DNA of 44,339 bases from Conidiobolus incongruus B7586. Lineage: Eukaryota. Of the stretch, positions 1 to 38,700 are shown piece after piece. The DNA lies in the NCBI GenBank assembly GCA_000697335.1, contig JNEM01009148.1, positions 1 to 44,339 of the forward strand. Direction: 5' to 3'. How positions within the stretch are numbered: the stretch's first letter is position 1; each line of letters opens with the position of its first letter. The notes under the pieces are model-generated. The model made no database searches. It was given only the letters and a program-made list of their open reading frames with translations, and was not told where the DNA came from. Position numbers and translations under genes: made by a program.

Positions 1-1639
1 AAATATTGATAATTAATTAAAATTAAAATATTCATATAGTATAATATTTGAAATCTTTGCAAAATATTATATTTGATTTTACTATTAATATTCTATATAA
101 TATGTTGTAATTTTTTTATGATTTATTAGCAATACTAATATATACTTTTTAAATTATAAAATTCTAAATATAAAGATTAAATATAGATAGATTTTGTTAA
201 AATATGAAATATAACATTATTATTTAGTTGATATATAAACTTGATTAATGAAATATATTATCAATTTATTAATAAAATATTTATATTAATATATTTTCAT
301 AAATTGATAATATAGTTTATTTAATATTAAATGGTTTTTCGTAAAAAACATATTATTAAATAGTATTTTGTCAAAAAATATAGAATTATTATTATTATTA
401 TTATTATTATTATTTGCAAATAAATTACTAAAGCTCAAAAATAAGGTGTTTATAAAAAATAGCAAATTAAAATTTATAAATGAATAAATGACAGTGACAT
501 TGTTTAAATATGAATAATAAAAAGATGGAGATTAAACAAATACATTTAATATTCATTGTATTAATTTTACAATATGCAGCTTAGTTATTAATAAATATTT
601 AATACATCGGCTAATCATTTTACTCAATTAAAACACTAAATAATTAATGTCATTATACAGTAACAATATATAAATATATCTTTCAAATTGAATAATTTCA
701 AATTTTTAATTAAAATACTGTAACTTATTAAAATCCTTTAAAATAACTAAATATTAAAATTTGAATCAAGTAAAATATAATAAATTAATCAAAATTATTA
801 AAATATAATTAAAATTATTTTATATTTAAGGATTTAAATTAATAAATTTTAAATATTAAAAATAATTTTTAATATATTCTCATGGCTAAAATTGTTAAAA
901 TTGATATTATCTAGACTTAATTTCACAGTGGAATTGGACATTATGGAGCATGGGAATTTTAGATAGACTAATTTTGGAATAAAATTTAAATGAAATGTAT
1001 TTAACCATAAAATTGAGGTGAATAAACTATGATTTCTTGATATTTTTTTTGGTAAAGTATAATAAGCTTTGCTGTAAAAATGAATCTGGTTATATGTTTT
1101 GTTTATTCAGTCTATAAAATCTCTTATATTCATAATTTTGGTTAAATTTTCCAATCCAAAAGACAGTACTATTTCATATAGAATTCAATTCAATTCGATC
1201 CAATACTATTTTTAGATTAGTATGCTGAATGAAAAATTAAAATTCATTTGAATATGCTTTATATATCCATTAGTTTTAACATTAATTATTTATTTTCAAA
1301 TCATATTGAATAGTAAATTATGTCAATAATACCGAAATAGATTAACTAAAATGTTTAAATACATATGATTAAATATCAACATAATTCAATACTTAAAATT
1401 TCAAAATAGTATTTTACAAACTTTGAATTGATTTTTCATTAATATTTAATTAAATATATACCCTTGAATATAAATCAAGTTTCACTATAATTTTGCCTAA
1501 TATACTTGAATAAACTTGAGAATAACAGTTTCAAGAATTTCCACTGGTTTTGCACACACTTACCAATACTTAATCCAGGTCTAGATAAATTATTTCTTGC
1601 AACATAAACGCTCAGATATTATTTTACAATAACATATAA

Positions 1640-2125
1640 GTTCAAACAATATAGAATTAAATGCGTTATTGTTATTTTTAGTTAAGTATGAACAATTTTG
1701 ACTTTGTTTTTGCCTGTAAAATATCAGAACAAATTGAAGTCATATTTATCAAAGAATCAGCAATATCCAAGAAAAAATATAAAATATGATATATAAGAGT
1801 TTTTACAAAATACCAAAAATAAAACTTTGATAATAAATTTAAAACCTTAACAAAAGTAACTTTATATACGAAATTATTGGGTTGATTAGACCAAAGCTTA
1901 ATTATCAGTGTTATAAATTTTAAACCATATAAAAATAAGTATATAAAGGAATAACCTGTAAAGTTATTTAAGTCTATGAAATCAAGCTTTATTATTATAA
2001 ATTTAAGTTTTTAGAATGTATTTTCATAAAAGAAATGTATAATTAAAACTATAATTATTTGTTAAAATATTAAATTGAAAAAATTAAATAGAATATGTAT
2101 TATTAAAAAGACTTTATAAAAAGAT
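1640..2125 (+). pseudogene. tnpA: IS607-type TnpA serine recombinase relic
   Basis: 1781-1849 reads KI*YIRVFTKYQK*NFDNKFKTL (family pattern KIxYxRVSTxxQKxDLxxQ; catalytic Ser codon now TTT). 1867-2034 reads YEIIGLIRPKLNYQCYKF*TI*K*VYKGITCKVI*VYEIKLYYYKFKFLECIFIKE (pattern HEIIxDIGSGLNxxRxxFxxIL..V.KG....VVVAYxDRLCRxGFEFLEW.F). RLYKK near 2108-2122 matches RLYGxR. There is a weak HTH trace VQTI*N* at 1640-1660. Confidence 0.75.
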
Positions 2126-2215
2126 ATAAATATCAAATAAATAATAATAAATAAACCTTGGTAAAAAACTAATAATAATAACAAATTCAAAATAATATTC
2201 TTTTGAAAATATTAA

Positions 2216-3291
2216 AAAATCTGAGCTTGTTTTACTTTTGAACAAAAAAATGTAATTTAAAATAATCAACTGATGATCGGCGGTTTATTAAGGCTAAATG
2301 GAAGAGTATACTTAAACCAAAAAATATTAAAAAATAAATATCAAATATAAATTAATTCATAATAATAACCAATATGTAAATGAAAACTATTGTCATATTT
2401 AAAATAAAATATTTAATACTAATTTTATAGGCTAAAAATTCAAATATATATATATATATATTAGTAAACAAAGTGAATATAAATTGAATGTTATTTAATT
2501 GGAATATTAACAAGAGATAAATATATTTTAGCTTACCTATTTTAATAATAAACTAATTGAAATAGCGAACCTATTAATAAAAATACTTAATTAGATTATT
2601 TCCTTTAAAATACAAAGCTTGGTATATTTTATTTTGTATTTTAATACCATTGAAAATTAATAATAACTATTACACTCCTAAGCCAAATATAATTAAAAAA
2701 GGTTTTAACCCTTGAATTTAACATATAGACTTTTGTAACAAATTATTTCTTTTGGAGTTTATATATTTAAAAAAGATACTGTAGCGATTAAATATCTGTA
2801 TCGTTATTATAATAGAGTATAAAACAAATGGTTTTAAAAATTATACTATAAAAAATATTATAAAATGAGAAAATAGAAGAATAAAAAATTCAAATATTAT
2901 AAATAAGATATATAACAAATTTACCAAATTAATCTTTGAACAATATAATATTATTTTTTGCTTGGATTTGAGGTTTAAAAAATATAAATAAATAAATATA
3001 TATATTAAGAATAAAAATACAAAAATAACATAAAACTTACTCAATAAAACAAGGAAATGCCTTTAGTAAATAATAATCATTTGCAAAAAGCATTAAACAA
3101 GTAAAAACATATACAAACTATGGATATTTAATATATTGCTTTGATAAAGCAAGATTTTCTAGTACCCACAATATTATGCAAAGATCGATGAAGACATTAA
3201 TAATGCTAGAAACATACTCCTTTATGATTTAACAGTCAATCAAGCTAGACTTCTAGGATTGGTATTGTGGCTCACCCCCTTGGGGTCTTAA
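2216..3291 (+). pseudogene. tnpB: TnpB / Fanzor2-type RuvC nuclease relic
   Basis: KI*ACFTFEQK at 2216-2248 (KIRxYPTxEQK). TKLGIFYF/CILIPLKI at ~2611-2658. RuvC-I VLTLEFNI*TFVTNY at 2702-2746 (VxALDPGVRTFxTGY). Y.RV*NKWF*K and KFTKLIFEQYNIIF/LLGFEV follow. LLNKTRKCL**IIIICKKH*TSK/TYTNYG at 3037-3124 (LLxKxREYPWCxVxICxExYTSKTCxxCG). SKIF*YPQYYAKIDEDINNARNILL at 3148-3222 (SKxFxCPxC...DRDxNGARNILL). Stop at 3289-3291. Confidence 0.88.
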
Positions 3292-3380
3292 GACTCTATG
3301 CAAGACTTGGACAAAAGTGATCAAATTTGATTAAATTTGGACAAGGTTAATTGTTAGCGATTATCATAAAACGAACCTTA
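3240..3380 (+). ncRNA. Putative omegaRNA (scaffold plus flanking guide) of the TnpB/Fanzor element
   Basis: GC-richer segment overlapping the tnpB 3' end and running to the element end, the known position of TnpB/Fanzor omegaRNAs. Inverted repeats ctaga-ct-tctag, acccc-ctt-ggggt and gtcttaagac. Limits are inferred. Confidence 0.45.
3304..3343 (+). repeat. Four tandem imperfect 10-bp direct repeats (candidate TnpA-binding end motifs)
   Basis: gacttggaca / aaagtgatca / aatttgatta / aatttggaca in exact 10-nt register. Confidence 0.6.
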
Positions 3381-4454
3381 AAAATCAGCTATCCATTTTA
3401 ATTCTTAATTCTACCCCCATCATGATCTCTCTCAACCCAACTAATATGCCTAATTGAAAATAATAGTATAGGTATTCAAAGATAAAAAATTTAAAATTTT
3501 TCATGAAAATTATAAAAATAACAAATTATTAAAAATAATAATGGAATATAATAATTATAAAATATTACTTGACTTTCAATCAAATTAAAATATAAAATAA
3601 AATTAAATTAATATATTCTTGAGAAATTTAATATTAAATATTTTATAGTTATTATAAGAATAATTTAACATTACTAGTTTTAAAAATAATAGGGAATTTT
3701 TTTTATCAAAGTTATAGTTAATAATTTGAGAAAATTAAGTATAATTTTTATTTATTCAAAAAAGGAATATTTTTATTTTAATTTAATAATAAAAAAAATT
3801 AAATATATAAATTATTTCTTTTTATATAAACTTTTTTTTATTTATATTAAGATAATATCAAGTTAACTATTATTATCAAATTATACTTTACAATTTCAAA
3901 CCATACTTTAATTTGTCCATTAAAATATGATTATTATTTGTGATCTACTTGGTTCGCTAAAATATGGAATTCTGATTTCAATTAAAATAAATATGATATA
4001 TTGTGTTATTTTAATAAGCATTCATTTTAAATTAGTTGCTTATAGTAATCAATATTAAAATATATAACATTATATAAACTTTAAATTGTGATTTTTATTA
4101 CTTTTAATAAATTAACAATTTGATTGTTTGTATCATTTTTGATGGGAAGGTTAAATTATTAAATATGTTCAAACTACACAGTTATTCATAAGCTAAATAA
4201 TTTAAATACCAGTTTTTAATTTGGAGTAAAATAAATAAAATTTTCAGTATATTTAAAACTATTTGTATCTATAATTATTTTTCTTATATACAAATGAAAA
4301 ATTAATTGTTATTTAGGATAATAATTTTATTCTGTTTAAAATTAAGTAATTTAAAATGTCTATTTAGGATTAAATACAAAAAAAAATTTTTCTTTTATTA
4401 TTCTTATAACAGAATTTAAAAAGTTATTCAACCAATAGAATTTGATAATATGAA

Positions 4455-4609
4455 TCAATTAGATCGATTAAACTCAATCGGGAATTCACTCATGGATCTC
4501 TTGATTGAATTCACTTTATTTGAATCACAACTAAAATCAGAAATAGTTAGTTAAACTAATATTACAAACATCTGATCTCCTTCCAATTGGAGAAACTGGG
4601 GATCTTCAT
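4455..4609 (-). other. Possible spliced small ORF (39 aa) or spliced non-coding transcript divergent from DES1
   Basis: ATG at 4609 and a 35-nt GTAAT..CTAAC..TTAG intron (4531-4565) give MKIPSFSNWKEIRCFCDSNKVNSIKRSMSEFPIEFNRSN*. It lies in a GC-elevated patch. No homology recognised. Confidence 0.2.
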
Positions 4610-4986
4610 AATTGTTCTGATTGGATAGCTATGGAAGTTGACTGCTGGATGGAGTACAAGGTCATACACTAATTTTTCAAAGTTCCTGAGAACTTAACCT
4701 GAAGCGCTTTAGTAAGAGAAGTTGAGGGGAGGGAGGGGGAAATAAGTGGGAAGTAATATGAATGAATAAAGAAGATGGTGTAAATGTAAAATTGAGGAGG
4801 TACAATGTATATATAAAAGGATTATCGTTTATCATTCCTATTTTAACTTATTATTTTTATTCTGATGCACTTGATGAATATTTAAAATTATAATTTATTA
4901 CTTTTATTCATAAAATCAAACATATTCACCTATAAATATTAATTATTATCTTCATAATCTGAATAATACTATATCACACTCAATTT

Positions 4987-5040: not shown

Positions 5041-6123
5041 ATGCCTCCTAACGTATCCCTTTCAACCAAAGTAACTCAAGATATCCACCCAGATCATCGC
5101 CATCCATTATATTTAGGAGAATGGAAGCGTTCAATTCCCTACAAGGACACCGGAATGGCTGTCGATAACATGGATGAACCCCACTTCAAGCGCAAGTTAG
5201 CTATTCTAAAGAAGTATCCCGAAATTGCTAAACTTTATGGCCCAGACTGGAGAACTAAGTACATTATCATTATTACTACTTTGCTTCAACTCGGTTTAAG
5301 CTATCTGATCGGTAAGATTTGGCAACCTAGCGCTCTCCCAATGTTTTTGATGAGCTATTTTGTTGGAGGAACACTCACTGCTCTTTATGGAGTACTGATC
5401 CACGAATGTGCTCACAATCTTTGCTCACATAGCCCCTTGGCTAATCGTATCCTTGGTCTGATCGTTAATACTTGTATTCCTTTCCCTATTTCTTCTTCCT
5501 TCCGCCGTTATCACTTGACACATCACGCATACCAAGGTGTAGATGATATTGATCCTGATCTTCCACTTGAATGGGAATTATATTTGATTAAAGGTAATTC
5601 ATTCCTTAAATTCCTCTGGGTCTTCTGCTATCCCCTCATGTATGTTGTCCGTGGTATTGCTAAGTTCAAGCCTTTAAGTTTTTGGGAAATTGTGAATATT
5701 ATCTATACCATTACTGTCGACCTACTGGTTTTATACTTCTGTGGTGTCCAAGGCTTCCTTTATCTCTTCTTCTCCCTCTGGTTAGGTTATGGTCTTCATC
5801 CTGGCGCTGCTCATTTTATTCAAGAACACTACACCTTTGATGATGGTCAAGAGACATACTCCTACTATGGTGTATTGAATAAGGTATTTATGAATATCGG
5901 ATATCATAATGAACATCATGACTTTATGCAAATTTCATGGGCCAACTTGCCTGAAGTACGTCGTATTGCACCAGAATTCTACAACACTTTGAAATATCAT
6001 ACCAGCTGGGTATGGATGCAAGTCCGTTTCATTACAGAGAGTATGATGGGACCTCAATCCAGAGCTATTAGAAGCCAACAATCCCATAAAGAGGGCAGGA
6101 AATTGGTCGAAAAATCAAATTAA
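5041..6123 (+). CDS. DES1: Sphingolipid delta(4)-desaturase (dihydroceramide desaturase), intronless
   Basis: N-terminal EPHxxRxxxILKKYPEIxKLxGPD motif. His boxes HECAH, HLTHH, HNEHH. LHPxAAHFIxEHY and ETYSYYG motifs. Confidence 0.95.
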   Translation: MPPNVSLSTKVTQDIHPDHRHPLYLGEWKRSIPYKDTGMAVDNMDEPHFKRKLAILKKYPEIAKLYGPDWRTKYIIIITTLLQLGLSYLIGKIWQPSALPMFLMSYFVGGTLTALYGVLIHECAHNLCSHSPLANRILGLIVNTCIPFPISSSFRRYHLTHHAYQGVDDIDPDLPLEWELYLIKGNSFLKFLWVFCYPLMYVVRGIAKFKPLSFWEIVNIIYTITVDLLVLYFCGVQGFLYLFFSLWLGYGLHPGAAHFIQEHYTFDDGQETYSYYGVLNKVFMNIGYHNEHHDFMQISWANLPEVRRIAPEFYNTLKYHTSWVWMQVRFITESMMGPQSRAIRSQQSHKEGRKLVEKSN

Positions 6124-7034
6124 TTTTGACAATTCATAAATATATATATATTTATGATATTTATAATATTTGGATATCATCTTTAATAATATATATTGTT
6201 CACTAACCATAACATGTTTTACAATAATAAATTAATATAGTATAAATCAATATCTAACAGTTATATTGTATTTTATATCTACTTTATCTTAAATCCATAT
6301 TTTTAGTTTGATTATTTATTTTCTTGACTAAATTTGGATATAATATCACTTATGATATATTGTCATTTTAGTAATACTTAAATTTGATATTTGATTTAAA
6401 TTATATTCATCATTTAAATGATCTTTAATTAATTTTAAAATTATTTCAGATACTATAATTAAATAAAAATTACTAATTTTAATTACTATTTTATTTTATT
6501 TCTTATTTTTTTAAGAAAAAAAATTAATATATATTATATAATTTCACATAATTTTTTATCTTCTGTATAATGATAACTCCCTTAAAACTTTTTTAAACTA
6601 TATTATTTAATATTATATTAAATTAATTGGATATATTAAAAAAATAAAATATCGCATAATTAAAATTGGTATGACTCATATTATAATTATACTCATTTAT
6701 TACATTTTTAGCGCCATTATTCACTGTGAATAAATAAATGAGCCGAAATATATCCTAAATAAGGTTGTAAAATTAATGTTCTTTATCAATTTGATACTTT
6801 TCATTATTAGAACATAATTGATCCAATTAAATTAAAATTGATATTACAATTAAAAACTGTGTTTAATTCGTAAAATGATCATTTTCTAGAGAATTTTTTA
6901 AATTGTAACATAATATTATCAACCATATTTTTTTATTACATTATTTTATACTTTATAAATGAATTATTTTAAATAATAAAATATATTTTACAAATTAAAA
7001 ATATTTTTATAATTTAATATTTATTTAATTAACA

Positions 7035-7432
7035 AACGTCGATACTTAAGGTAATTGATGGGGAATGATCTTGTCAATTACTCAAGAAACTCCGATTACC
7101 ACACTGGATCGTAAAGTCACATTGCAAACACTTATTTCCTGAACTCTAATATAACATTATCACGAACGAACTAATAAACACATCTCTTTTACCTTCATTC
7201 CAAAAGTATCCAGTCTCTAAGTTTTCCTCGTAACCCTCACAAAAGTGTTGAGCTGTGACGAGTGTGAGATAGTTACTTTACACGAAGAACCCAATTTACA
7301 GTAAGCCGTTTGCACCTGATTTGGTGAACCTTATCGATTTCCCGTAACTCTGTGGTAACCTGTCATTTACCACTGGCGATTCCCCGCTTAAGCTCTAAAA
7401 GTCTATTTCCTCCTACAATTACGGTCGTCATA
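7035..7432. ncRNA. Unassigned structured non-coding island (ncRNA candidate)
   Basis: Sharp GC/CpG-rich island inside extremely AT-rich flanks, with no ORF of 60 aa or more and many local and long-range complementary segments. Confidence 0.4.
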
Positions 7433-9509
7433 ATGATATTAAAAAAATTAATAATATATATGTAATATTTTATATTCTAATTATTTTATTAAAATCCAAA
7501 TTAATAAATAAAATTTATAAAACCTAATATATAATAAATATAATTTCTGAATATTAAATTTCAATAATTTTAAATTATATTATTATTATTATTATTAAAT
7601 TAAATATTTTTAATTATTAATTGATAAACTAAAGCTTATATTTTAATGATAAAACAATGATTAATAATTTAAGTTTTGAAGATTAAAAATATTTTGACCT
7701 AAATTTAATAACTAAGGAATATATATATAAATGAATTTCCATATAGTTTCGTTGATAATAAACCTCCAAAGCAATATATAAATATATTTGAGTATTTTAA
7801 TTCTATAAAACATAATTATAAAAATTCATTTCATATTTCAAAATGAGTTTATGAGTATGAAAAATATATTAATTTAATTAGCATTAGTTTATATAATATT
7901 TTAAAATCGAAACAATATTCAAATTTGTTCAAAAGCAAATTGAATAAGCTAATATCTCAATTGAAACAATATCATACTGAGAGTGCACAATTATAGTTGG
8001 TTGAGAAAATACAATAAAAAATGGTCCTTGAAATTTGTCTATAATAGCTGAGATATTTGAATAGTTTAACAAATTTCCAAGTCAGTAAAGTATAAATATC
8101 ATATAATCTATCAATAAAATCATACTAAAAGTATTATATTTTTATTACTTATTTGAATAGAAGTTTAGTTAAATATAAATTGTCTCATGCAAAATAATAC
8201 TTCCACTACAATGTTGATTGAAATCCTATTTCATATTCCAAGCACTTTGTAGAGATAAAAATTTGGAATAATCTCTTAATAATAAACTTTCAAATACAGT
8301 ATATATATTATTTGATTTTAAAAATATATAAATTTTTGCAAAAAGTAATTTACTCAATTTAAATATACGTTTTTGAATTGTATATTAAGATATATTATAC
8401 TCTCAAGTTAATCATAAAGACATTTTTTATACTATTGAAACTTCTGTACCAATATTTAAAGTAAAAGGAAAAGATTATCTAATTTATTTATATTGATGTA
8501 TTTGTATATAAATTGGGAGTTATTTTGGATTATAAATTTCAAATTAAAATAAAATCAATGATTAATAATTTGAAATTAAAATTGATCTCAAACAATTTGA
8601 TAAGTTGCAATAATAAGCTATTTGATACTTTATATATTAATAAATTTTAATTATTTAATACAAATTTCAAAATTAACCTATATAGTAAATTTGAATATAA
8701 GCAGGAGTACTAAAAGGTTTGTGTATTTAAGTTTTAACATCAATCAGCAAAATTATATCACTTTCATTTATGAATGGTTTTAAACTGAAAATTAATGAAA
8801 TAAGTTATTATTTTTAACTTGATTTATCCATTGAATTTAAAACAAAAATAAAGTGATATTGGTCATTAATGTTATGAAAAAAACGAGGTCATAAGTTGTC
8901 ATTATTATTAAACTATTACCTTTATATTTTAATTTAATAATATATCAAATTTTAATAATTAATTTTAAATTAATCTTTTAAGGAAATATATTTTTGTTAT
9001 TGAAATTTTTTAATAGAAAAAATTATTCTTATATAGGATAATAAAATATACTTATATTGGTAAATCTATCGTTAATATTTATGAGATTAATATTAAATAA
9101 TAATCAATGCTATTAATCAATGTTTACTAAAAACCAGTAATCAAATAAATTATATAAATTTAGCAGAATGTTTATAACTTTAGAGTATGTAAATTTGAAT
9201 TTTTCTCGTTGAAATCATTCAAAATAAAATGAAAAATTACTATATTAATCAAGATTTATTATGTATAATTATATTTTATGACATTTAATTTAGTTTGACG
9301 CAGCAAGACAGTGTTTATTTATTACAAGGCAAAGGTTTCAAATTGGTAATAAGATTCCATCTCTGATCAATCATATCTTAGTTTATAAAGCAAATACTAT
9401 ATTACCATTAATTATATAAACCCAATAAATCTTAACTTAGTTTAAAATTAATAAAATAATTAAATCATTAACTTATCCAATTTAAGATTTACTCTATAAT
9501 TTATAAACT

Positions 9510-10412
9510 ATGTTTAAATTTTTAAAGAAAAGCCCTAAACAACTGTTCAAAGACCGCTCTTCCTTTGATGGTAAGGTGGATGGCAGTCCAGTACATAAGA
9601 TAGGTCCCGAAGAAGGTGTAGACATCGGTGAATATCATTTGTCTTTCAACTGCTATACTGGTGCTATGTTCACATTAATTAAAAATTGTAAAGCTTGTAT
9701 GATGGAGCACTCAGATGAAGAACTTTGCAACTTATTCAGGAAGACTGCGAAAACTATGAAAATTGGTAAAAAAGAAAAAATGTTAGTTGCCCAAATGATG
9801 ATGTCCAGGGAAGATGAAACCATTTACGACAACGTAGCAGCCTTATCATCTGTATTAACTCAGCGTCAACTTTATCGTATATTAATGGATTCAACTCTAC
9901 TTTTTAAATCCAATAAAAAAACTGCTGAAGACTTGGGTAAGGCAATATGCAAGAAGAGACTCGAAGAAATTGCATCAGGTGAAATTGACGGTTATGTGGA
10001 CGCCATTTCCAATACACTTGCTTATGGTGTTAGTCAGGATTTGGTTCGCCCTACGGGATGGAATGATGAATGCCAGCATAAAGGACGCAAATCTTTTTTC
10101 GGTAAGGTGAAAAATGGACACACCTGTGAAGCTTTGATTCCAAATTGTCTGGGAAATGCAGTACTTGGAATATCAATAATTGGTGATCAAATTACTATGA
10201 CCAAGGATGAATTCCTGCGCTTTACCCGCGAGTTCAACATCTCTTGTGATGGATTTATTTTAGATAAAGGTAACATCCATTTGTCTGGTGATGAAGTTAT
10301 AGATAGATGTGATCACGATGAAGGCAAGTGTCAATTTAATGAGCTTCCGGATGAGGTACATGTTGGTTACAGTGAAGAAGCTGATCAAATGATAATTTTT
10401 TATAATGTATAG
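9510..10412 (+). CDS. Hypothetical protein, 300 aa, intronless, Cys/Met-rich
   Basis: Long clean ORF with coding-like composition in an AT-rich background. TATATAAA ~95 nt upstream. No family recognised. Confidence 0.8.
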   Translation: MFKFLKKSPKQLFKDRSSFDGKVDGSPVHKIGPEEGVDIGEYHLSFNCYTGAMFTLIKNCKACMMEHSDEELCNLFRKTAKTMKIGKKEKMLVAQMMMSREDETIYDNVAALSSVLTQRQLYRILMDSTLLFKSNKKTAEDLGKAICKKRLEEIASGEIDGYVDAISNTLAYGVSQDLVRPTGWNDECQHKGRKSFFGKVKNGHTCEALIPNCLGNAVLGISIIGDQITMTKDEFLRFTREFNISCDGFILDKGNIHLSGDEVIDRCDHDEGKCQFNELPDEVHVGYSEEADQMIIFYNV

Positions 10413-12070: not shown

Positions 12071-14101
12071 TTAAATATCATAAGGAGAAGTATTATTAGT
12101 CCACTTATTTGCCCATCTGATCTTTTCAGCGAACCATCTCAACTGGTTAGCAGGCTTGGAGACCCAATGATTCTCATCAGGGAAGTAGAGGAATCTGGAG
12201 GGAACGCCTTGGCGTTGAAGAGCAGTAAAGGCCGCAATACCGTCAGTGCTGACGCAGCGGTAGTCCTTGCCACCGTGGATGAGGAGAGTGGGGGTACGCC
12301 ATTTGGAAACAGTGTTCATAGGATTCCAGCGTTCAACAATGTCGCGAACTTCCCAGGCGGGACCTCCAAACTCGGCCTCGTTGAAGAAGGTTTCGTCGGT
12401 GGTGAAGTAATCTTCGTAAGTATCAAACGTACCATCGTGGCCTATGAGACATTGGAAGCGGTCAGTGTGACCATTGAGCCAATTGACCATATATCCACCG
12501 TAGGAAGCACCCCAAGCACAGGATCTCTTATCGTCTAAGAAGTTGTACTTTTGGAGGGCGTAGTCGTAGCCCTTGATCAAATCTTCATAAGGATAACCTC
12601 CATAGTGCTGGAAGATAGAATCGGTGAATTTTTGACCGTAACCGGTAGATCCGTGGAAATTGATCATTATGACAGCATAGCCAGCAGATGCTGGGATTTG
12701 AGGATTCCAACGATAACCGAAGCTATCACCCCAAGCGCTTTCAGGACCTCCGTGAACCCAAAAAGCAACTGGGTACTTTTTGCCTTCTTGGAAGTTAACA
12801 GGCTTAACGATCAAACCGTGAACGACTTCATTCAAAGCACCCTTGAACCAGAAAGATTCGGCATCTTGAAGTTGGTAATCTTTGTAAGCATCGATATTAA
12901 ATGAAGTGAGTTTCTTTTCGTTGGCACCATCCAAATTGACTGTAAACAATTCAGAAGGTTGATTGATTCTAGTTTTTTTGAAGATGACTTCATTGTCATT
13001 AACTTGAAATACTGAAGCAGATCCAGTTTGAGTCAATTCCTTGAGCTTTTCAGTCTCAATATCTAACTTGAACAACTTGTTCTTGGAGAGATGATTGGCA
13101 TCCAAGATCAATGACTTGGAATCTGGAGTGAATTCAACGGATCCGGCGCTAAGATCCCAATCGTCGTACAAATATCTCTTCTTCTTGGTGGTTCTGTCGT
13201 AAAGGACAATATGGTTGCGATCAGATTCGTTATTATCTTTGATGATTTCTAACCAAGCTAAATACTTGCCATTTGGAGAGTATGTGGGAGATGCAAGGGC
13301 ACCTAATCCACTATCATTGATCTTAACAGGCGCTTTACTTCCATCGGAGGGGACAATATAGAGCTCTAAAGTGGTTTTCCAGGCGATATCTCTACGATCT
13401 GGACGAGTTAAGAAAGCAACTTCTTTTCCATCAGGAGAAATTGCATAATCACCACTATCGCCAAATGGAGAAATGGGAGTACTTGACTTGGGAGTTTCGA
13501 TCAATAAATCTTTTCCAGAGTTAGGGACATTTCCATCAAGACTAGCAGCAAAGAGATGGCTTCTGACTGAGTAATCCTTGAACTCATCCCAATGACGTAC
13601 ATAGAGCTGCTCATAAACCAAAGCTGAGTCGAATCTCTCTTCTTTCTTTTCCAATTGGTATTCGGTTGTGAAGGTCAATAACTTTGATTCAGGATGATAC
13701 TTCACATTATCAATAGATTCATAAGTGAAATTTGTCAATTGTTTGATGGTAGGATTGTTAACATCCTTAAAGCTAATAGACCAGAACTGAGCAGTATCAT
13801 CCTTATTAGCGACATAACCAACCTCATCATCATTGAGCCAAATCGGATTATAAAAATCGGAAGGTAAAGTTGATGTCAAATTGGTAGACTGACCAGATTT
13901 CAAATTATATAAGAAAACATTCACTTTCTTTTTATTGGTCTCTTTATCATATTGGGAAGTGCTGTAAATTACATTTTGACTATTTGGTGAAATTGCATCA
14001 TAAGTAGTTCTAGGTAAAGTTACCAAAACTTCAGGTGATACTGGTTTCTTTCGACCTTGAACTAAACTTAATAAAATATTAATTAGAAATAATTTTTTCA
14101 T
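12071..14101 (-). CDS. DPP5: Secreted dipeptidyl-peptidase V (peptidase S9C), copy 1
   Basis: Signal peptide, LYVRHWD, SPDG/SPNG propeller repeats, HGGPES, GSTGYGQ, nucleophile GASYGG, KDYR, DENHWV. Confidence 0.93.
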   Translation of the reverse strand: MKKLFLINILLSLVQGRKKPVSPEVLVTLPRTTYDAISPNSQNVIYSTSQYDKETNKKKVNVFLYNLKSGQSTNLTSTLPSDFYNPIWLNDDEVGYVANKDDTAQFWSISFKDVNNPTIKQLTNFTYESIDNVKYHPESKLLTFTTEYQLEKKEERFDSALVYEQLYVRHWDEFKDYSVRSHLFAASLDGNVPNSGKDLLIETPKSSTPISPFGDSGDYAISPDGKEVAFLTRPDRRDIAWKTTLELYIVPSDGSKAPVKINDSGLGALASPTYSPNGKYLAWLEIIKDNNESDRNHIVLYDRTTKKKRYLYDDWDLSAGSVEFTPDSKSLILDANHLSKNKLFKLDIETEKLKELTQTGSASVFQVNDNEVIFKKTRINQPSELFTVNLDGANEKKLTSFNIDAYKDYQLQDAESFWFKGALNEVVHGLIVKPVNFQEGKKYPVAFWVHGGPESAWGDSFGYRWNPQIPASAGYAVIMINFHGSTGYGQKFTDSIFQHYGGYPYEDLIKGYDYALQKYNFLDDKRSCAWGASYGGYMVNWLNGHTDRFQCLIGHDGTFDTYEDYFTTDETFFNEAEFGGPAWEVRDIVERWNPMNTVSKWRTPTLLIHGGKDYRCVSTDGIAAFTALQRQGVPSRFLYFPDENHWVSKPANQLRWFAEKIRWANKWTNNTSPYDI

Positions 14102-17100
14102 TTTTTTAATAAGTTACATTATTTTAATTAAACATAGATTTTAAATATCCTATTTGTATCTAATTAAAATGATGGGATAAATTTAATTAATTTTACCGAA
14201 TTTATCATAAATTTGCAGTCATAAGGCATTTAATGCTGATAAATGTGAATAATATGATCATCTCAACTTGTCTTCGATATATATTTTCCTTTTTGATCAA
14301 ATATAATAAACTGTAATGAGAAAATGGTTACAATTTTTATTACAAATAATTTTTGAAAATTACAAGTTTAGATATATGTTATTAGGTGATCGGTAATCGG
14401 GTAAAAATTGGATGATTATTGTTATATAAACTTTGGATTGAAGTATTAATTTGAAATAAAATTATTGGATATTATATAATATATTGGATATGATTCATAA
14501 TGGATATTTCTTAAGTAATACATTTTTATATTTATCATTATTTTTTTTTCGAAATTTTTAACTAAATAAGTCCGATATTGTTTTTAATATCTGAATTCAA
14601 AAATATAATTTTCATATAAATTTGACATTAAAGATTTTTCACAGTGTTATAGCAAATTATTTTGAATCCTGTCAGTGCATGGCCAAATAAAAATTTGAAT
14701 AATAACCTAATATTTCACTTTGTTCTTAATAAATGATTATATAAAAAATCAATGGTGTATTAATTATAATGATTTAATAAACAAATCATTATGCTTGGCT
14801 ATATTTTAATGAACTTTGCTTAACAATAATTACTTTAGTTTTTTTTATAAGCTATAATAAAATTTAAGATATATGTTTTATATCTATATTAATTTTAATA
14901 TTAATGTTTATAATATAGTTATAAAACAAATATTTTAGTTATTTTAATAATCTATCAATTAAAATTAAAAATTTAAATTTTAGTTTATTAATTAGTAATA
15001 TTTCCTCGAATATAATAATATCAATATCTAAATAATAACTTTTTTTTCAAATAATTATTTACTTTGGTATTTATTATATAATTTTAATTTTTTGTCCCAA
15101 GCAATTATCATATTTTTTTTAGTTTTAAGTTATATATGATGATTCATTATTTATTTATTTGATTGATACTCTTAAATATAGTAGGATAAGTAACATATCG
15201 ATATAAATTTATATTGACTTTATTCATTTTATTCACTTAATTTATAATTATAATCAAAAGTCTTATATGGTTAAATTTTTAATTAATATCAAATAATCTG
15301 TTAATAAAATTATAATAGAGTTAGTATCCAATTGTAAAAAATATCTTAGTTTGTTGGTTAGGCTATATAGATAATATTGGAAATATATTAAAATTTTATT
15401 AAAAAAATCGATAAATTAAAAAGTAAAAAGAACTTAAACAAGGTAAGTCTTTAATATCAGATCTTCTAAGCTGGCTAATATACTCTGTAATATTATATAT
15501 TAAAACCTTTTGCCACCATTTAGTATTTAATAATATATTTTAATAATTTATAAAAAATTTATATAATACGATATTATGATGTAAACTCTAAGTTAAAAAT
15601 TTGTAAAATTTATAATACCTTAATTTTAGTAATAATGGTTTTTGTGACAATCTATTAAAAGTTATAATATATATAGTAGGGATTATAAATTATTAAATGA
15701 TTTATGAATATTTAGTATGATATTATAATAATGATGAAATATTAATTATTATGTAATTGTATATTATCATAAAATCAAAAGAACTTTTAATAAAAATTGT
15801 TCCAAATTTATTATATTATATTATATTTTAAATTATTGTTAACAATACATATTATTATTTACAATTATAAATTTTTGAAATAACATTTAATTCAAAATAA
15901 CAAATAATATGTTATATATTTGAAAACATTATTAACTGAGCAATAAGTATATATTTTTTATTCTTTTTGAATCGAATCTTGAACTTAATGTTGATAGAAA
16001 AAGTATCTAAATTTTTTCAATCATCATAAAAGAAATAAATTAAAGAATTTCAAAAAAGCTATACTAGGTTTCAAAGAAAAATTCACAGTATTTTGAGTAA
16101 AATTTTAAGAATAATCATTTTGAAAGTTATTGAATTGACTATAATTAATTGGCATGTTAATTATCATCAATGTATAATATTAAAAAGTTAGCTTATAACT
16201 AGTATCTGATGGTCTGCATATTTTATAACCAATATTATCTGGTTTAAAATATTTGCAATTAGCTATTAAATCTGACTAATTAAAGACTGATATTTCTTAT
16301 AATAATTATAACCTAACCAAATTAAATCATATATATATATATTATTATACTTATATTATTTTAATTAAATGATAATTAAAGTTATGTTAGTCTATATACA
16401 TTATATTAATGAAAAATATCAATTTTTATTCAATTTATTTGTATTTTCTTTATTTGAATATATACTGCAAACCTATATATTAACCACTTAATATATATAA
16501 TTAGGATAGTATTAAAATCGATTGCAAGTATACATAATATGAAATATTTAAAAATAACTATTAAATATTTTTTAAATAATAAATTAGCAAATTTATACTT
16601 ATACATAATATGCTCAAAATTTATAATTAAATTTTCTCAAATTGATGAAATTATATTCTTTAAATATTTTAATTGACAATTTCAAATTAACTTGCAATTT
16701 CCGCTATTCATTATTTTCATCATATATTGAAACTATTATAATATTATATATCAAATAGTATTTGTATTTTACTTTAAAAGAAATAATTAAATCATTTATT
16801 TTATTAATATTTATATTCTTGGATTAAATTATCCAGTAATTAAAAAATTATTGTTGGGTTAAATGTATTATTCTCTAAACTATTAATCATTCAAAATCAT
16901 CTTTTAAACCTCGATATGAGATTAATCCAAAATTAATTATTTAAAATTTCACGATAATGGTATGATTATTATATAATTTAAGCCAAATATAGTTAAACAA
17001 AAAGATACAACCACTTTTCAATAAACATAGTGTATATAAAATGGTTCGTAATAATTAAAGTTAATACTCTATATAATAAATGAACCGAATTTAACAAATA

Positions 17101-19507
17101 TGCTGATTATATTAATTGACTTTTTTTATTAAAAAATGATCTTATATCAAGATTTAAAACAATTTTATATTCTATTTCTCAAAAATTTTGATTGAGATGA
17201 ATTTCAACTAAATCAATTTTTCCATTATTTAATAGTATAGTGATTATATCAAATTCAGATATTCTATTCCATTTGTAATTCCTAAGAGTTATTAATATTA
17301 TAATTTTCTGATCCACTTTCATCTTATTTTATATGCTATATATTTTTCATCCGTAATTTAATAATTTCGCAAGACATTCTTGTAAGTTATATCCTTATCA
17401 ATCCCAAAAATTGATCATTAAATTATTAAATCTTAACTATTTCAGCACCAATAATTATTGCAATTTTGAGTTTGAGATGTATTCCTTAGCTTATGATTAA
17501 TATAATCTATAATGTAATGTTTCATATGCTAATATTTCAATAAAAAATAAAACTAAATCCACATGATATCAAATAATTATCTTCGAATCGAGCGATAATA
17601 CAAATCTATTAAATGATTAAAATTACTATATAAATCAAATTTATATATAATATTATGAATCAAAATATAGATACTGTGACAAATTTATTTAATTCCAGTT
17701 TTAGGTCAAAAATTTGATCTCAAATACTCTTCGTCTCATTTTTATAATGGTTTTATCAAATTAAAATCAAATATTTTCAATTATATAATAATATCAAAAT
17801 AAATAATGATGGAATATTATAACATCCATAACTTTTATTTAATAATTCTGCATCAATATCTAATCTGGTATTCATCGTTTAAAAAAACAAATCTTTTACA
17901 AATTATTCATTAAATACAATAGCAAAAGCAAGTTGATATAGAATTATTTTTTGTACACTGCATTGTAAAAATTGAATGCTTCTTGCTGTTTCATAACTAT
18001 AGAAACTGTCAAACGTCTGAACAAATGTAAATATTAATAATAAACAACATCATATAACAATATGGACTAATAATTTTTCAAGATAATGATTCTAACACAT
18101 TTCTTGATATATCAGGTTTGGGTATATTTCGGTTGAAAAGGATTTTTATATTTCTATAATTTCAATTTGAGAAATTACAAAATAATAAATATTTCTAATT
18201 GTTATATTATTTGTAATTAAGTATTTAAAGCAAATACTGAAAGAAAAAGTTAAATTATGATCCATTTAACCGGGTAATAGCTTGAAATATTCCAATATAA
18301 TCCAAATCTTGGATAATCAATATTGTTATTGATATGCAAAATATATATTAAAAATTTCAATAAAATTATGAAAACAATATATTTGTATGATTTTTTAGAG
18401 ATAATGATCTAGAGTCAATGATATAAAAATTAAACAAATACAATTTTGATTATGATAATTCATAAAAATAATTTGCTTAATTATATTGTTAAATGTGTCT
18501 GATGATAACAAATTTTGTTGTTATTAATATAATTAAACTAGATGATTTAGATCTTTTATCCTTAATGTTTATAATTATAGCAAGAGAAATGTCAATTTAC
18601 CACAGTTTTATATCATCTGTAAATTAAGTATTTCCCAAATTATCTTTACTATAAAAGGAAATATCAACTGTTGCGAATTATATCCGAATATTATGGATAA
18701 CATCGGTATTTATTTACTATATTATTGAAATAATTAAATAATTATCAAATATGAGTAATTTATTATGTAATAATATGGCAAAAAGATATTTGATTCAGTT
18801 GATTAATTGATTAGATGTGAGTAAATTTTCATATAGATTTATCTGTGAAATTGATATGATATTATTATAAAAATATCAAAAAAAGGATCATATTAAATCT
18901 AGGATATTGAGAATATAATAATAGAAAATTGGAAAGAGTAATCTTCTATTCTTTAAGGTGAGTTATTTTTAACTTTCGATAATAAATAATATAAAAGTAC
19001 CAAAGCTACACAATCACACTTTTGATTTTACCAATCGTCATCATAGTATCTAATCAGGTGATCAAAGAAAATTCAATTCACGAGTCTAACCAAATTGCTC
19101 ATGTGATAAATACAAATGGAAAAATTGGAGTGTAATTGATCTCAGGTGATTTGATGGAAGAGTTAATGGAAAAAAATATGACGCTGACATTACTCAAGTT
19201 TAAGATATTATCAATGAACCAAATACCAAGCATACTTAGAAGATTAATGCTGTCTTATGAGGATAGCGTAATGGTTATATTATGGAATATAACTTACATT
19301 CAATTGTATAAAGTCAAATGTATCAGTTTAAACATAATAATCAATGCAACATCACCAAACCACTAAACTTAAACTTGTAAAACTCATAATCATTCTGAAT
19401 TGCATAACAAATAAAATACAAAATAAATGAAATGTTAAACCTGAAATTGACTATATATATGACTCAAATCCTTAATACTTCCCTACTATTTTTAACATAA
19501 TCATATA

Positions 19508-21532
19508 ATGAAAGTATCCCTACTTTTTTCTCTTTTAGTCTTTGTAGTTGCTGGGGAAAAGAAGCCTCTCAGTCCCACTGATTTGATTGCTTTCCCCCGT
19601 AACTCCATCCAAACTGTCTCTCCCGATGGCAAATCTGCTCTCTATTCTACCACCACATATAATCCTCAGACAAATAAGAAATCAAAGCACTTCTTCTTAC
19701 TTGACATCGCTTCCGGATCTGCAAAGAATGTAACTGAATTCATTCCCGCTGGTTTCAACACTCCCTCATGGATTGATGACAATAATTTAGGTTTCTTTGC
19801 CACTAAAGATAAAAAAACTCAATTTTTCTCTTTCCAATTTGGCAAAGAAATCTCCAAACCTGTTCAACTTACCAACTTCACTCAAGAAATCAGCAATTTC
19901 AAATATCATGCTGATTCTAAGTTATTAACTTACACTGTTGATTTTGAGTTGGAAAAGAAACCTGAAACTTTTGATTCCGGTCTTGCTTATGAACAATTAT
20001 ATGTTCGTCACTGGGATACTTTCAAGGATTACAATGTTTACTCTCATCTTAATGCTGTCCCCATTGGCAAAGATATAGTTACTAAAGGCGTTGATTTGAT
20101 GGCTAAAACTCCCAAGGCTAGCACTCCAGTTGGACCTTTTGGTGATGCTGGTGATTATAGCATTTCACCCGATGGTAAAGAAGCTGTCTTCTTGACCAGA
20201 CCCGACAAAAAGAACATTGCTTGGAAAACCACCTTGGAATTATATCAAGTTCCTACTGATGGATCAGCCGCTCCTGTCAAGATCAATGATGAAGGATTGG
20301 GTGCCATTGCTTCTCCTCGCTACTCTCCCGATGGCAAATACATTGCTTGGTTAGAAATCACCTCTGACAACAACGAATCTGGTCGCAATCACATTGTACT
20401 TTGGGATCGCGCCACCAAGAAGAAGAAGTATTTGTATGACAACTGGAATTTAAGCCCTACTTCCGTTGATTGGGCTAAGGATTGTAAGACTTTATTACTA
20501 TCTGTACCTCACCATGCCCGTGTCAAGATCTACTCCTTAGATATTGAAGGCAAGAATCTCAAAGAATTGACCTCCAATGGAAAATCTACTCTTTATGAGG
20601 CCCGTAAGGATCACATTCTCTTCACTCAAAATGACTTGACCAGCTTACCTGAATTGCACTCAATGAACTTGGATGGCTCTAATGTCAAGAAGTTAACCAA
20701 CCTCAATACCAAGCTTATTGAACAATATCACACCTCCAAACCTGAATTCTTCTGGTTCAAGGGCGCTAAGGATGAATTGGTTCATGGTTTCATTCTCAAG
20801 CCTATCAACTACCAAGAAGGTAAAAAATATCCCATTGCCCTTTGGGTTCATGGTGGTCCTGAATCTAACTTTGCTGATTCTTTCGGCTTCGGTTGGAACC
20901 CTCAAATTCCTGCCAATGCTGGTTTCGCTACTATCATTATTAATTTCCATGGTTCTACCGGTTACGGTCAAAACTTCACTGAATCCATCCTCCATAACTG
21001 GGGCAGTTATCCCTTCGAGGATATTATGAAGGGCTTTGACTATGCTCTTACTAAATATCCTTACCTCGATGGCAACCGTGCCTGTGCTTGGGGTGGTTCT
21101 TATGGTGGTTTCATGATGAACTGGCTCAATGGTCACACTGATCGCTTCAAGTGTCTCATCAATCACGATGGTGTCTTTGATACCAAACATTCTTACTACA
21201 CCACTGACGAACTCTTCTTTATGGAAAACGAAAATGGTGGTACACCTTGGGAAAATCCCGAAAACTACAATAAATGGAATCCTGCCAACTTTGTCAAGAA
21301 CTGGAAGACTCCCACTTTAGTCATTCATGGTGGTAAGGACTACCGTTTGGTCGATGGTGAAGGTTTAGCCACTTTCACTGCCCTTCAAAGACAAGGTGTT
21401 CCTTCTAGACTCCTCTACTTCCCTACCGAAAACCACTGGGTCTTGGATTCAGCTAACCAGATCAGATGGTTGAATGAAAAGATCAAGTGGGCCAACAAGT
21501 GGACTAACAACACTTCTCCCTACAAGCTTTAA
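19508..21532 (+). CDS. DPP5: Secreted dipeptidyl-peptidase V (peptidase S9C), copy 2
   Basis: Signal peptide, LYVRHWD, HGGPES, GGSYGG, KDYR, ENHWV. Colinear with copy 1. Confidence 0.93.
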   Translation: MKVSLLFSLLVFVVAGEKKPLSPTDLIAFPRNSIQTVSPDGKSALYSTTTYNPQTNKKSKHFFLLDIASGSAKNVTEFIPAGFNTPSWIDDNNLGFFATKDKKTQFFSFQFGKEISKPVQLTNFTQEISNFKYHADSKLLTYTVDFELEKKPETFDSGLAYEQLYVRHWDTFKDYNVYSHLNAVPIGKDIVTKGVDLMAKTPKASTPVGPFGDAGDYSISPDGKEAVFLTRPDKKNIAWKTTLELYQVPTDGSAAPVKINDEGLGAIASPRYSPDGKYIAWLEITSDNNESGRNHIVLWDRATKKKKYLYDNWNLSPTSVDWAKDCKTLLLSVPHHARVKIYSLDIEGKNLKELTSNGKSTLYEARKDHILFTQNDLTSLPELHSMNLDGSNVKKLTNLNTKLIEQYHTSKPEFFWFKGAKDELVHGFILKPINYQEGKKYPIALWVHGGPESNFADSFGFGWNPQIPANAGFATIIINFHGSTGYGQNFTESILHNWGSYPFEDIMKGFDYALTKYPYLDGNRACAWGGSYGGFMMNWLNGHTDRFKCLINHDGVFDTKHSYYTTDELFFMENENGGTPWENPENYNKWNPANFVKNWKTPTLVIHGGKDYRLVDGEGLATFTALQRQGVPSRLLYFPTENHWVLDSANQIRWLNEKIKWANKWTNNTSPYKL

Positions 21533-35763: not shown

Positions 35764-38700
35764 TGAATGAGTATGATTATGGTTATGAATATGAATATGA
35801 AATTAAGCTAATAATATGAAGTATGAAAGATATTTATATATGCTATTCAATACAACAGTAGCCCTAGATGAAAAGTTTGATGAACGATCATTGCCCTATT
35901 CAGACACAATGAACTCATTATAGAAACAACTAAACATTTGAATCTCAGTTGATTATTTTTATTATCAATTGAAATTGCTAAATTTAAAATGTTACAAAAA
36001 TTTTGAAATGTAGCCAAATTTTGTTACTTGATTTCATTACTATTCAAAATACATTATTACTGTTTCAACTACTTTAGAGTTTCATAAAATCATATTTTAC
36101 TGCAATTTTTATTGATTTTTATTATTTTGAATCATAATAGTATTGAAAATTAATCAGCATTGTTTGATTATAGTATTAATAGTATTAATTTGGTGAATTT
36201 CATTTATATGAACATTATTATGAATTGCAGCATTATTTTTTCAACAAAATGAGTTGATGTGATTTAATGGAATATGTACATGGATAATATAGTGCATCTT
36301 TACAGCCATTACCAATCTTATTAACCATTAATAAGCTGAATATCACCAAATTTCATAATTACCATAAGATTTTCTGATATATTAATTATTCGATAAATAA
36401 ATCACTTCCATGAAAATGATATGATTATATTGATATTCATTGAATATATTCTTGAGGTACTAACTTTATTGAGTTAAAATAATCCAATTTACAATAACAT
36501 TAGTTTTATTTATTTTTAACCTATCCCAATGACGATGTGTATAGTATTTGCACCTATTGAATCATAGTAATATAAAATTTTAGGTTATTTTTACAGCTCA
36601 TCTTGATTTTTAAAACTCTAGATTTGGATACTTTGTTCTGGAATTTGTATAACTAAGATTGAATCCTCTGTAATAATATACAGATTCACCAATTGTCATT
36701 ATAAAAATATATAGTATTGTTTGGACGTAAAGGATATTGATATAGTTGAATTAAATTTTAACGTTTTTCTATGCGATATCAATTGTTTTACACTATATTG
36801 TTGTTTGTCTCTTTCAATTAAGACAATTAATCATAATAATAAATTATTTTCAAAGAATTTAAATTGAAAACATGATAAAGTTTTTGATAAATATCCATTA
36901 TTCCATTTTACAATTGAATATCATTGATTTAAATTTTAACGATATCAAAAAACAAGATCAACAATTAGTAAATATATTAATTATATCAAGCTGGTGGACA
37001 ATATCTGTGTTATTAAGGTGAGTAAATAATTAAGTACATTTTTTATCATAAAAACTTGGTTTAAGGAATATATTCAATTACCTATCCATGATCAATCTTA
37101 ATTTATAATATTATGTTTGATTACATAGGATTTTAATTCAATATATTAAGCTTATTTATCTTGACAATCTAAATGACCACAACTTGACTGAGTTTGATTA
37201 GCAAAATATTGTATAAAACCTCAAATGAATTCAATGAATAATTTATATGCTATTACACTGTCAGTTAGTCCTTGAACTAAATAGTTGATATGTTGATAAA
37301 AATGGCTAATATAATGGCAGGATCTTGAAGTATAAATAAAAGAGGTATAAAAATGTTAAATTCTTATTATTTATTAATTTAAAATCCAACATTAATACAA
37401 TATAAATTGGCTAAATTTGAAATAATAAATAGCAAGTAGTCAATAAATTCGACTTCTAGCCTTTATTTGAAATATGTCAATATTCGTAATTGGAATGAAT
37501 GCAATTTTATAATATATAAGATAATAGCATAAATTATATGACTTTAGCTACTGGTTAAATTAATCAGCTAATTCTTTTGGCACAATAGTCACATGTTGAT
37601 TTAGATACAAATGAGGCAATTGTGACTTAATTTCAAGTTGTCAGATTTAATATTAATTAATAAATTTTTCAACTTCAATTAATTACTGATTTACAGACAT
37701 TTGCTTTGAATAATATATAGATGTAATAACTATAAATATTATCAAATGCAACTAATAATGGAATTTAACATTTTTAAAATATTTAAATTACCAAACTGAC
37801 TAACATCCAACCTTAATAGTTGCCAATTTTGACCAAATAAATGATGGAGATTATTATTGCATTAGTTTAAATATTTACTATATACCGTAGCATAGTCATT
37901 GTTAGCCTTTATTATTATAAATTATCGATCCACAAATAATAACTTGTATAAATGTATATAAAATATATTCAAGCTTGAAAATCAAAATCCTTTTGCATTG
38001 GTATTTTGAATATATTTTTTTAATTAAAATATATATTTGCATATATTTATATGTCAAGGAAAATATTTAATTAGAGTGTTTCCTAATATATTAAGGAAAA
38101 AAAATATATGACTGACATACAATTTTCATATTTTTTCAAGGTTCACAATAGTTGAATAGTAAATATTGTATTGAATGATGGTAGATAAGAGTAGATATAT
38201 ACTAGTACATTATTTATGAAAACATTGGGTTATACCATATATCAACTATTGTACAAAAACTAATTTGTATACTGGATGTTTTTTTATAGCAATTGAAATT
38301 ACTAACCACTCAAGTTTGATCGTATTTTAAAATAAAATCAAACCAAGAATTATATACTAAAAACCATATATAACAATATACAATAAAGTCAAGTACCATA
38401 TTTTAAATAATTTAATATACTAAGTCTATATTGATTTTCGATTAATTTGAAAAATGATTGCTACTTAGTGCTCATAGTATTTATGAAGAAAAGATTAAGG
38501 TTCATTTGAAACGATTTTCAATTTGTTTCTGAAATGGAGAAAAACTTACTTATCAATGATTAAGAACATCTACTGCCAAAAAATATGAACATCAATAATT
38601 GACAGTATGAAGAAAGGATTGATACAAGAGATATACATCTAGAAAATTTAAGTTAGATTTAATTTAGTTTTAAGATCGAAACTAATGGAGAAATATCTTT

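What the first reader, a model, noticed from the sequence alone, without database searches (positions are those of the whole stretch)
1461..3360. Hidden two-gene IS607/Fanzor2 RNA-guided nuclease transposon fossil in a fungal genome
Seen: DNA that looks intergenic translates, across stops and frameshifts, into a serine recombinase followed by a full TnpB motif series (HTH, RuvC-I, RuvC-II, zinc finger, RuvC-III) in the right order and spacing. Known: IS607 elements encode a TnpA serine recombinase plus TnpB, and their eukaryotic derivatives are Fanzor2 omegaRNA-guided DNA nucleases. Inference: an autonomous IS607-Fanzor2 family was once active in this lineage. Intact relatives or a reconstructable consensus may exist and would be missed by ORF-based mining.
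Basis: partly seen in the sequence, partly recalled or inferred. Interest (0 to 1): 0.9.

Follow-up and report, generated by a model that had tools for sequence, protein, structure and literature searches.

The report
Dead Fanzor2 transposon with nested genes
This stretch is the heavily mutated, dead remnant of a bacterial-type jumping gene (a serine recombinase plus an RNA-guided Fanzor2 DNA cutter) in an early-diverging fungus, a kind already known; in its intact relatives the start of the cutter is written in a second reading frame on top of the recombinase gene.

Summary
Real and correctly named. Window ~1523-3359 (+) is a decayed IS607-type element in a Conidiobolus-like fungus. An unbiased search of 1.84 billion proteins gave 5 hits, all TnpB/Fanzor. 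Frameshift-aware alignment finds Fanzor2 at 2463-3330 (119.5 bits, shuffle maximum 25.6) and, more weakly, the TnpA catalytic domain at 1751-2037 (41.9 bits, 0 of 500 shuffles; significant only under a GC-to-AT decay model). The HTH is not significant. The right end (3359) and an omegaRNA pseudoknot covary across relatives. About 20 other contigs carry the right end, a few the left part. The copy is dead: the TnpA serine, two of three RuvC residues and the zinc cysteines are lost. Correction: the genes are nested, not side by side. In 76 of 81 relatives the +1 frame over TnpA has no stop, and it encodes the motif that contacts the omegaRNA in the ApmFz2 structure. The scan already noted this nesting, and similar fungal fossils, on other DNA. 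Intact relatives are ordinary called ORFs, so resurrection is unnecessary.

The parts
1523..3359 (+). Whole decayed IS607/Fanzor2 element (left edge approximate, right edge firm)
1523..1651 (+). Left part shared with sister copies in the same genome; the exact left end is not fixed
   Evidence: pieces 1523-1604, 1536-1594, 1565-1630; joints 1577->3227 and 1651->3304, one contig per run
1751..2037 (+). TnpA serine-recombinase catalytic domain remnant; one frameshift near 1831; catalytic Ser codon reads Phe at 1802-1804
   Evidence: 41.9 bits, 0 of 500 shuffles; sequence
1832..2032 (+). Remnant of the Fanzor2 N-terminal extension, read in the +1 frame over TnpA
   Evidence: 31.0 bits over 1712-2032, 0 of 200 shuffles; same DNA as TnpA, so not independent of it
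2269..2304 (+). Probable TnpB HTH remnant; right place, not significant
   Evidence: 60 and 54 of 200 shuffles as high
2463..3330 (+). Fanzor2 WED, RuvC-I, RuvC-II, zinc finger, RuvC-III and tail remnant; 19 stops in 291 aligned codons, about 7 frameshifts; stop at 3328-3330
2714..2722 (+). RuvC-I position (DPG in relatives) reads EFN
3088..3090 (+). Alternative RuvC-II Glu position, just before the zinc finger, reads Lys
3193..3195 (+). RuvC-III Asp, kept
3187..3359 (+). Predicted omegaRNA (right-end RNA) scaffold, overlapping the end of the ORF; its 5' limit is unknown; multi-copy in the genome
3267..3278 (+). Small hairpin whose loop (3270-3275) is predicted to pair with 3353-3358 as the omegaRNA pseudoknot
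3347..3359 (+). Conserved right-end motif ending in GCG; sequence beyond it varies among relatives
   Evidence: loose ends pile up behind 3352

Best explanation
This is a dead copy of an IS607-type transposon carrying a serine recombinase (TnpA) and a Fanzor2 nuclease, with the nuclease's N-terminus read in the +1 frame over the recombinase; when intact it likely moved by TnpA recombination and likely used a right-end guide RNA to cut empty sites. Shown here: the two remnants, their order and frames, the right end, sister copies, and the loss of catalytic residues by G/C-to-A/T decay. Inferred from characterised relatives: TnpA excised the element as a double-stranded circle and inserted it by crossover at a dinucleotide, here probably CG because relatives end in GCG and vary beyond it; a transcript of the right end folded into a pseudoknotted omegaRNA whose guide was the flanking host DNA; Fanzor2 cut element-free sites next to a short TAM, predicted to end in CG, which favoured retention of the element. 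Short derivatives with both ends were probably moved in trans. All copies seen then decayed by C-to-T and G-to-A changes, and this locus does nothing today.
For: 5 of 5 unbiased hits are TnpB-family; 49 of 102 identities to P0001; 119.5 bits vs max 25.6; the reverse-decay model gives only 26.8; TnpA; the upstream ORF of relatives L073 and L093 passes NF033518 IS607 transposase; L072 hits solved IS607 TnpA structures; right-end motif in 24 of 51 metagenome loci examined, one of them likely chance; 147-252 nt from RuvC-III in the other 23, window 173; pseudoknot and hairpin: 89.6% of cells paired, 19 double changes, 0 of 500 shuffles; slid controls 40-55%; 20 contigs in X1 and 22 in X3 differ at 3335; 8 and 7 loose ends behind 3352; at sites conserved in relatives the window keeps 143 of 167 A/T but 35 of 115 G/C; 65 of 80 G/C changes are transitions; 57/61/77 (nesting under selection); 68 (fungal host). 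Mechanism from PMC10711439 (part 1 and passages) and PMC6188088 (passages).
Against: The TnpA score is modest and depends on the decay model; other tiles come close. The middle (about 2040-2460) has no significant match. The left end, the crossover dinucleotide and the TAM are not fixed: there is no CG between 1400 and 1608 and no empty site was seen. The window's own right-end RNA does not fold better than shuffles (z -0.86 and -0.62). Sister copies come from one sample, probably the source of the window, and two joints rest on one contig per run. The decay counts use an alignment made under a decay model, so they lean that way.
Confidence: 0.92

Rival explanations
1. Only the Fanzor2 half and the right end are real; the 'TnpA' is a chance reading of AT-rich DNA, and the nuclease was carried by another kind of eukaryotic transposon (a Fanzor2* with terminal inverted repeats).
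For: TnpA domains are not significant in plain hmmsearch (E 0.16 and 2.3) or without the decay model; other tiles reach 38.4.
Against: Those two pieces are the top two of three TnpA domains reported in the whole 44 kb, colinear and on the right strand; spacing fits 38 relatives; the +1 frame matches the Fanzor2 N-terminus as in relatives; no inverted repeat or target duplication was found; contigs join the 1577-1651 region to the right end.
Confidence: 0.05
2. The sequence is a passive leftover of a larger insertion (giant-virus or other foreign DNA) and the element never transposed in this fungus.
For: Giant viruses carry the same architecture; no empty site was seen.
Against: About 20 contigs hold the right end with unlike sequence beyond it; the window's other genes are ordinary fungal ones; in the tree the window falls with fungal and unnamed rows, apart from the viral and cyanobacterial clades, though on a long branch and in a set seeded from its own best hit.
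Confidence: 0.08
3. The right end persists because the omegaRNA or a short peptide was domesticated by the host.
For: The 3' 330 nt are richer in GC (0.31 against 0.17 in the core) and are the part seen in most copies.
Against: Copies differ by about 18% (31 of 173 letters); the window breaks its own hairpin and pseudoknot pairs; short right-end derivatives are the usual by-product of such elements (general knowledge, recalled).
Confidence: 0.04

Closest known systems
ApmFz2 / ISvMimi, Acanthamoeba polyphaga mimivirus Fanzor2 in an IS607 element (PDB 9B0L; PMC11832414 passages; PMC10530073 passages)
   Same: Best PDB match of intact relatives by sequence (E 6e-71 for profile A2) and by fold; DPG RuvC-I, Glu before the zinc finger, N-terminal extension, pseudoknot at the right end, TnpA upstream.
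   Different: The window copy is dead; relatives end in GCG rather than GG; the omegaRNA overlaps the ORF end here, while the ApmFz2 conserved region runs 200 nt past the ORF. The passages searched in the structure paper do not contain 'TnpA' or 'overlap'.
Pro-Fanzor IS607 elements of cyanobacteria and other bacteria (ISXfa1, ISArma1 type; PMC10711439; PMC3673617 passages)
   Same: Same two genes; the +1 frame is open across the TnpA catalytic motif in 26 of 42 prokaryotic loci.
   Different: Only 31-40% identical over long matches; they form clades apart from the window; their right ends differ.
Fanzor2-like proteins of arbuscular mycorrhizal fungi (Racocetra persica P0012, Diversispora epigaea P0002; both genera are in Table S2 of PMC10711439)
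   Same: Closest named relatives; P0012 shares the C-terminal tail that the omegaRNA region encodes.
   Different: Different fungal phylum; 'Conidiobolus' has no hit in the supplements searched or with 'Fanzor' in the library.
NlovFz2 of Naegleria lovaniensis (PMC10432273 passages)
   Same: Fanzor2 with a long N-terminal segment and a TAM ending in CG (5'-CCG), as predicted here from the GCG end.
   Different: Its sequence was not compared here; the likeness of TAM is an inference.

Membership tests
IS607 family | Serine-recombinase TnpA upstream of TnpB | tested here: met
   for the window (catalytic domain only, decay model needed); for relatives
IS607 family | N-terminal MerR-type HTH on TnpA | tested here: inconclusive
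   149 of 200 shuffles as high in the window; present in relative L073
IS607 family | No terminal inverted repeats and no target-site duplication | tested here: met
   (inverted match reached by 217 of 500 shuffles; no duplicated flank of 5 nt or more); decay could hide either
IS607 family | Short direct repeats inside both ends | tested here: inconclusive
   A 10-nt word occurs at 3305, 3335 and 1504, but it is not enriched in the window (15 seen, 10.3 expected); left-right likeness is not significant
IS607 family | Crossover at a shared dinucleotide, usually GG | tested here: inconclusive
   Relatives end in GCG with variable sequence beyond; left end and empty site not found
Fanzor2 / pro-Fanzor clade | DPG RuvC-I and alternative RuvC-II Glu before the zinc finger | tested here: met
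   Invariant in alignment A2 of relatives (D366, G368, E508); the window aligns at both places but reads EFN and Lys
Fanzor2 / pro-Fanzor clade | C4 zinc finger followed by the RD motif | tested here: met
   Spacing and flanking residues align to P0001; the cysteines are lost in the window and the last Asp is kept
Fanzor2 | Encoded in a eukaryotic genome | tested here: met
   One 4630-nt contig runs from the element to 4974; the neighbouring desaturase is 90% identical to Conidiobolus coronatus
Fanzor2 | Right-end RNA with a pseudoknot | tested here: met
   Covariation in 16 aligned ends; structure chosen by eye from that alignment; expression not tested
Fanzor2 | RNA-guided DNA cleavage next to a TAM | not testable with these tools
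   This copy lacks two of three catalytic residues; intact relatives would have to be assayed
Fanzor1 | Large REC/WED insertions, eukaryotic transposase, no pseudoknot | tested here: not met
   Relatives fold like 9B0L and compact TnpB; the pseudoknot is supported; the partner is a serine recombinase

The most novel reading that the evidence does not exclude
The Fanzor2-specific N-terminal domain (RuvC-R and thumb of ApmFz2) was born by overprinting on the tnpA gene in bacterial pro-Fanzors. This nesting put both start codons near the 5' end of one mRNA, letting a scanning eukaryotic ribosome make transposase and nuclease from one transcript, and may be why only this TnpB clade colonised eukaryotes. 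This fungal fossil keeps a trace of that layout.
Probability: 0.3. Interest if true: 0.8.

Novelty: new member of a known kind. Interest (0 to 1): 0.4.

Why it matters
For the locus itself: it extends IS607/Fanzor2 elements to an entomophthoralean fungus, for which I found no record in the searches made, and shows that such fossils hide from Pfam, NCBIfam and PDB searches. It gives no usable enzyme. The by-product matters more. The relatives form a compact Fanzor2 family with a predicted CG-ending TAM and a pseudoknot that can be read from covariation. Their N-terminal domain is dual-coded with the transposase, which bears on the stated open question of why one narrow TnpB clade adapted to eukaryotes (PMC10711439) and on where such proteins should be started when cloned.

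Tried and rejected
No whole genome is held, so copies could be seen only through contigs of one sample. Six-frame Pfam, NCBIfam on 10 pieces, PDB sequence searches, tblastn in phages and plasmids and the word-index protein search (none of 1314 candidates) all gave nothing for the raw frames. No language-model look-alike search of the fossil was obtained. No RNA holder was listed; runs X5 and X7 of other samples showed only 19-24 nt matches. My first idea that viral elements are TnpA-TnpB fusions was wrong: the frames differ. My first whole-window control was invalid because an AT-rich background inflates GC-rich tiles; it was redone with per-tile backgrounds, and the remaining high score was traced to a GC island without motif identities. 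A shared repeat at left and right ends was not significant. The NSWF motif remnant in the window was not significant (138 of 200). Rfam found nothing. The RNA model found only its own training copy in the window. A RIP or CpG-specific cause of decay is not shown: C-to-T by next base was CA 12 of 15, CC 7 of 15, CT 4 of 5, CG 2 of 2, and dinucleotide indices resemble the flanks. RNAalifold recovered only the 3-pair hairpin. Three window proteins were not in the collection by exact look-up.

Full report
Setting. The window is AT-rich DNA with ordinary eukaryotic genes. The desaturase at 5041-6120 is 90% identical to a Conidiobolus coronatus protein, and the next named hits, at about 60%, are other early-diverging fungi. 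The host is therefore an entomophthoralean fungus. No whole genome is held. One 4630-nt contig of run X1 covers 600-4974 with no difference, so the element is not an assembly join; X1-X4 are one sample and may be the source.
Noticed in passing
window 7031-7438: A 408-nt island of 39-40% GC without a long ORF inside DNA of about 15% GC. No Rfam match, no tRNA, minus-strand fold z +1.28. Could be an RNA gene or a repeat remnant.
   Followed up: partly
window 9507-10412 (+): Intron-free 301-codon ORF with no Pfam family.
   Followed up: partly
window 34948-35802 (-): ORF with a hydrophobic start, four cysteine-rich repeats of about 58 residues and a polyproline run; no Pfam family. Looks like a secreted repeat protein.
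   Followed up: partly
window 12071-14113 (-) and 19496-21532 (+): Two divergently oriented S9 peptidase paralogs, 71-79% alike in DNA over long stretches.
   Followed up: no
L128, L129, L119-L121, L232-L301: Pairs of near-identical elements with different flanks show the ends of several intact pro-Fanzor and Fanzor2 families; cyanobacterial ones end near ...GTATCAG, others near ...TATCGG.
   Followed up: partly
L020, L034, L058, L064, L066, L069, L180, L182, L189: A second type of IS607-like TnpA in giant-virus contigs has 17-31 stops in the +1 frame, so it is not dual-coded.
   Followed up: partly
right-end alignment, codon after the RuvC-III motif: The Arg of 'LLRY' uses a CGN codon in 20 of 21 Arg-bearing loci among 25 listed, hinting at a further RNA-level constraint.
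   Followed up: no
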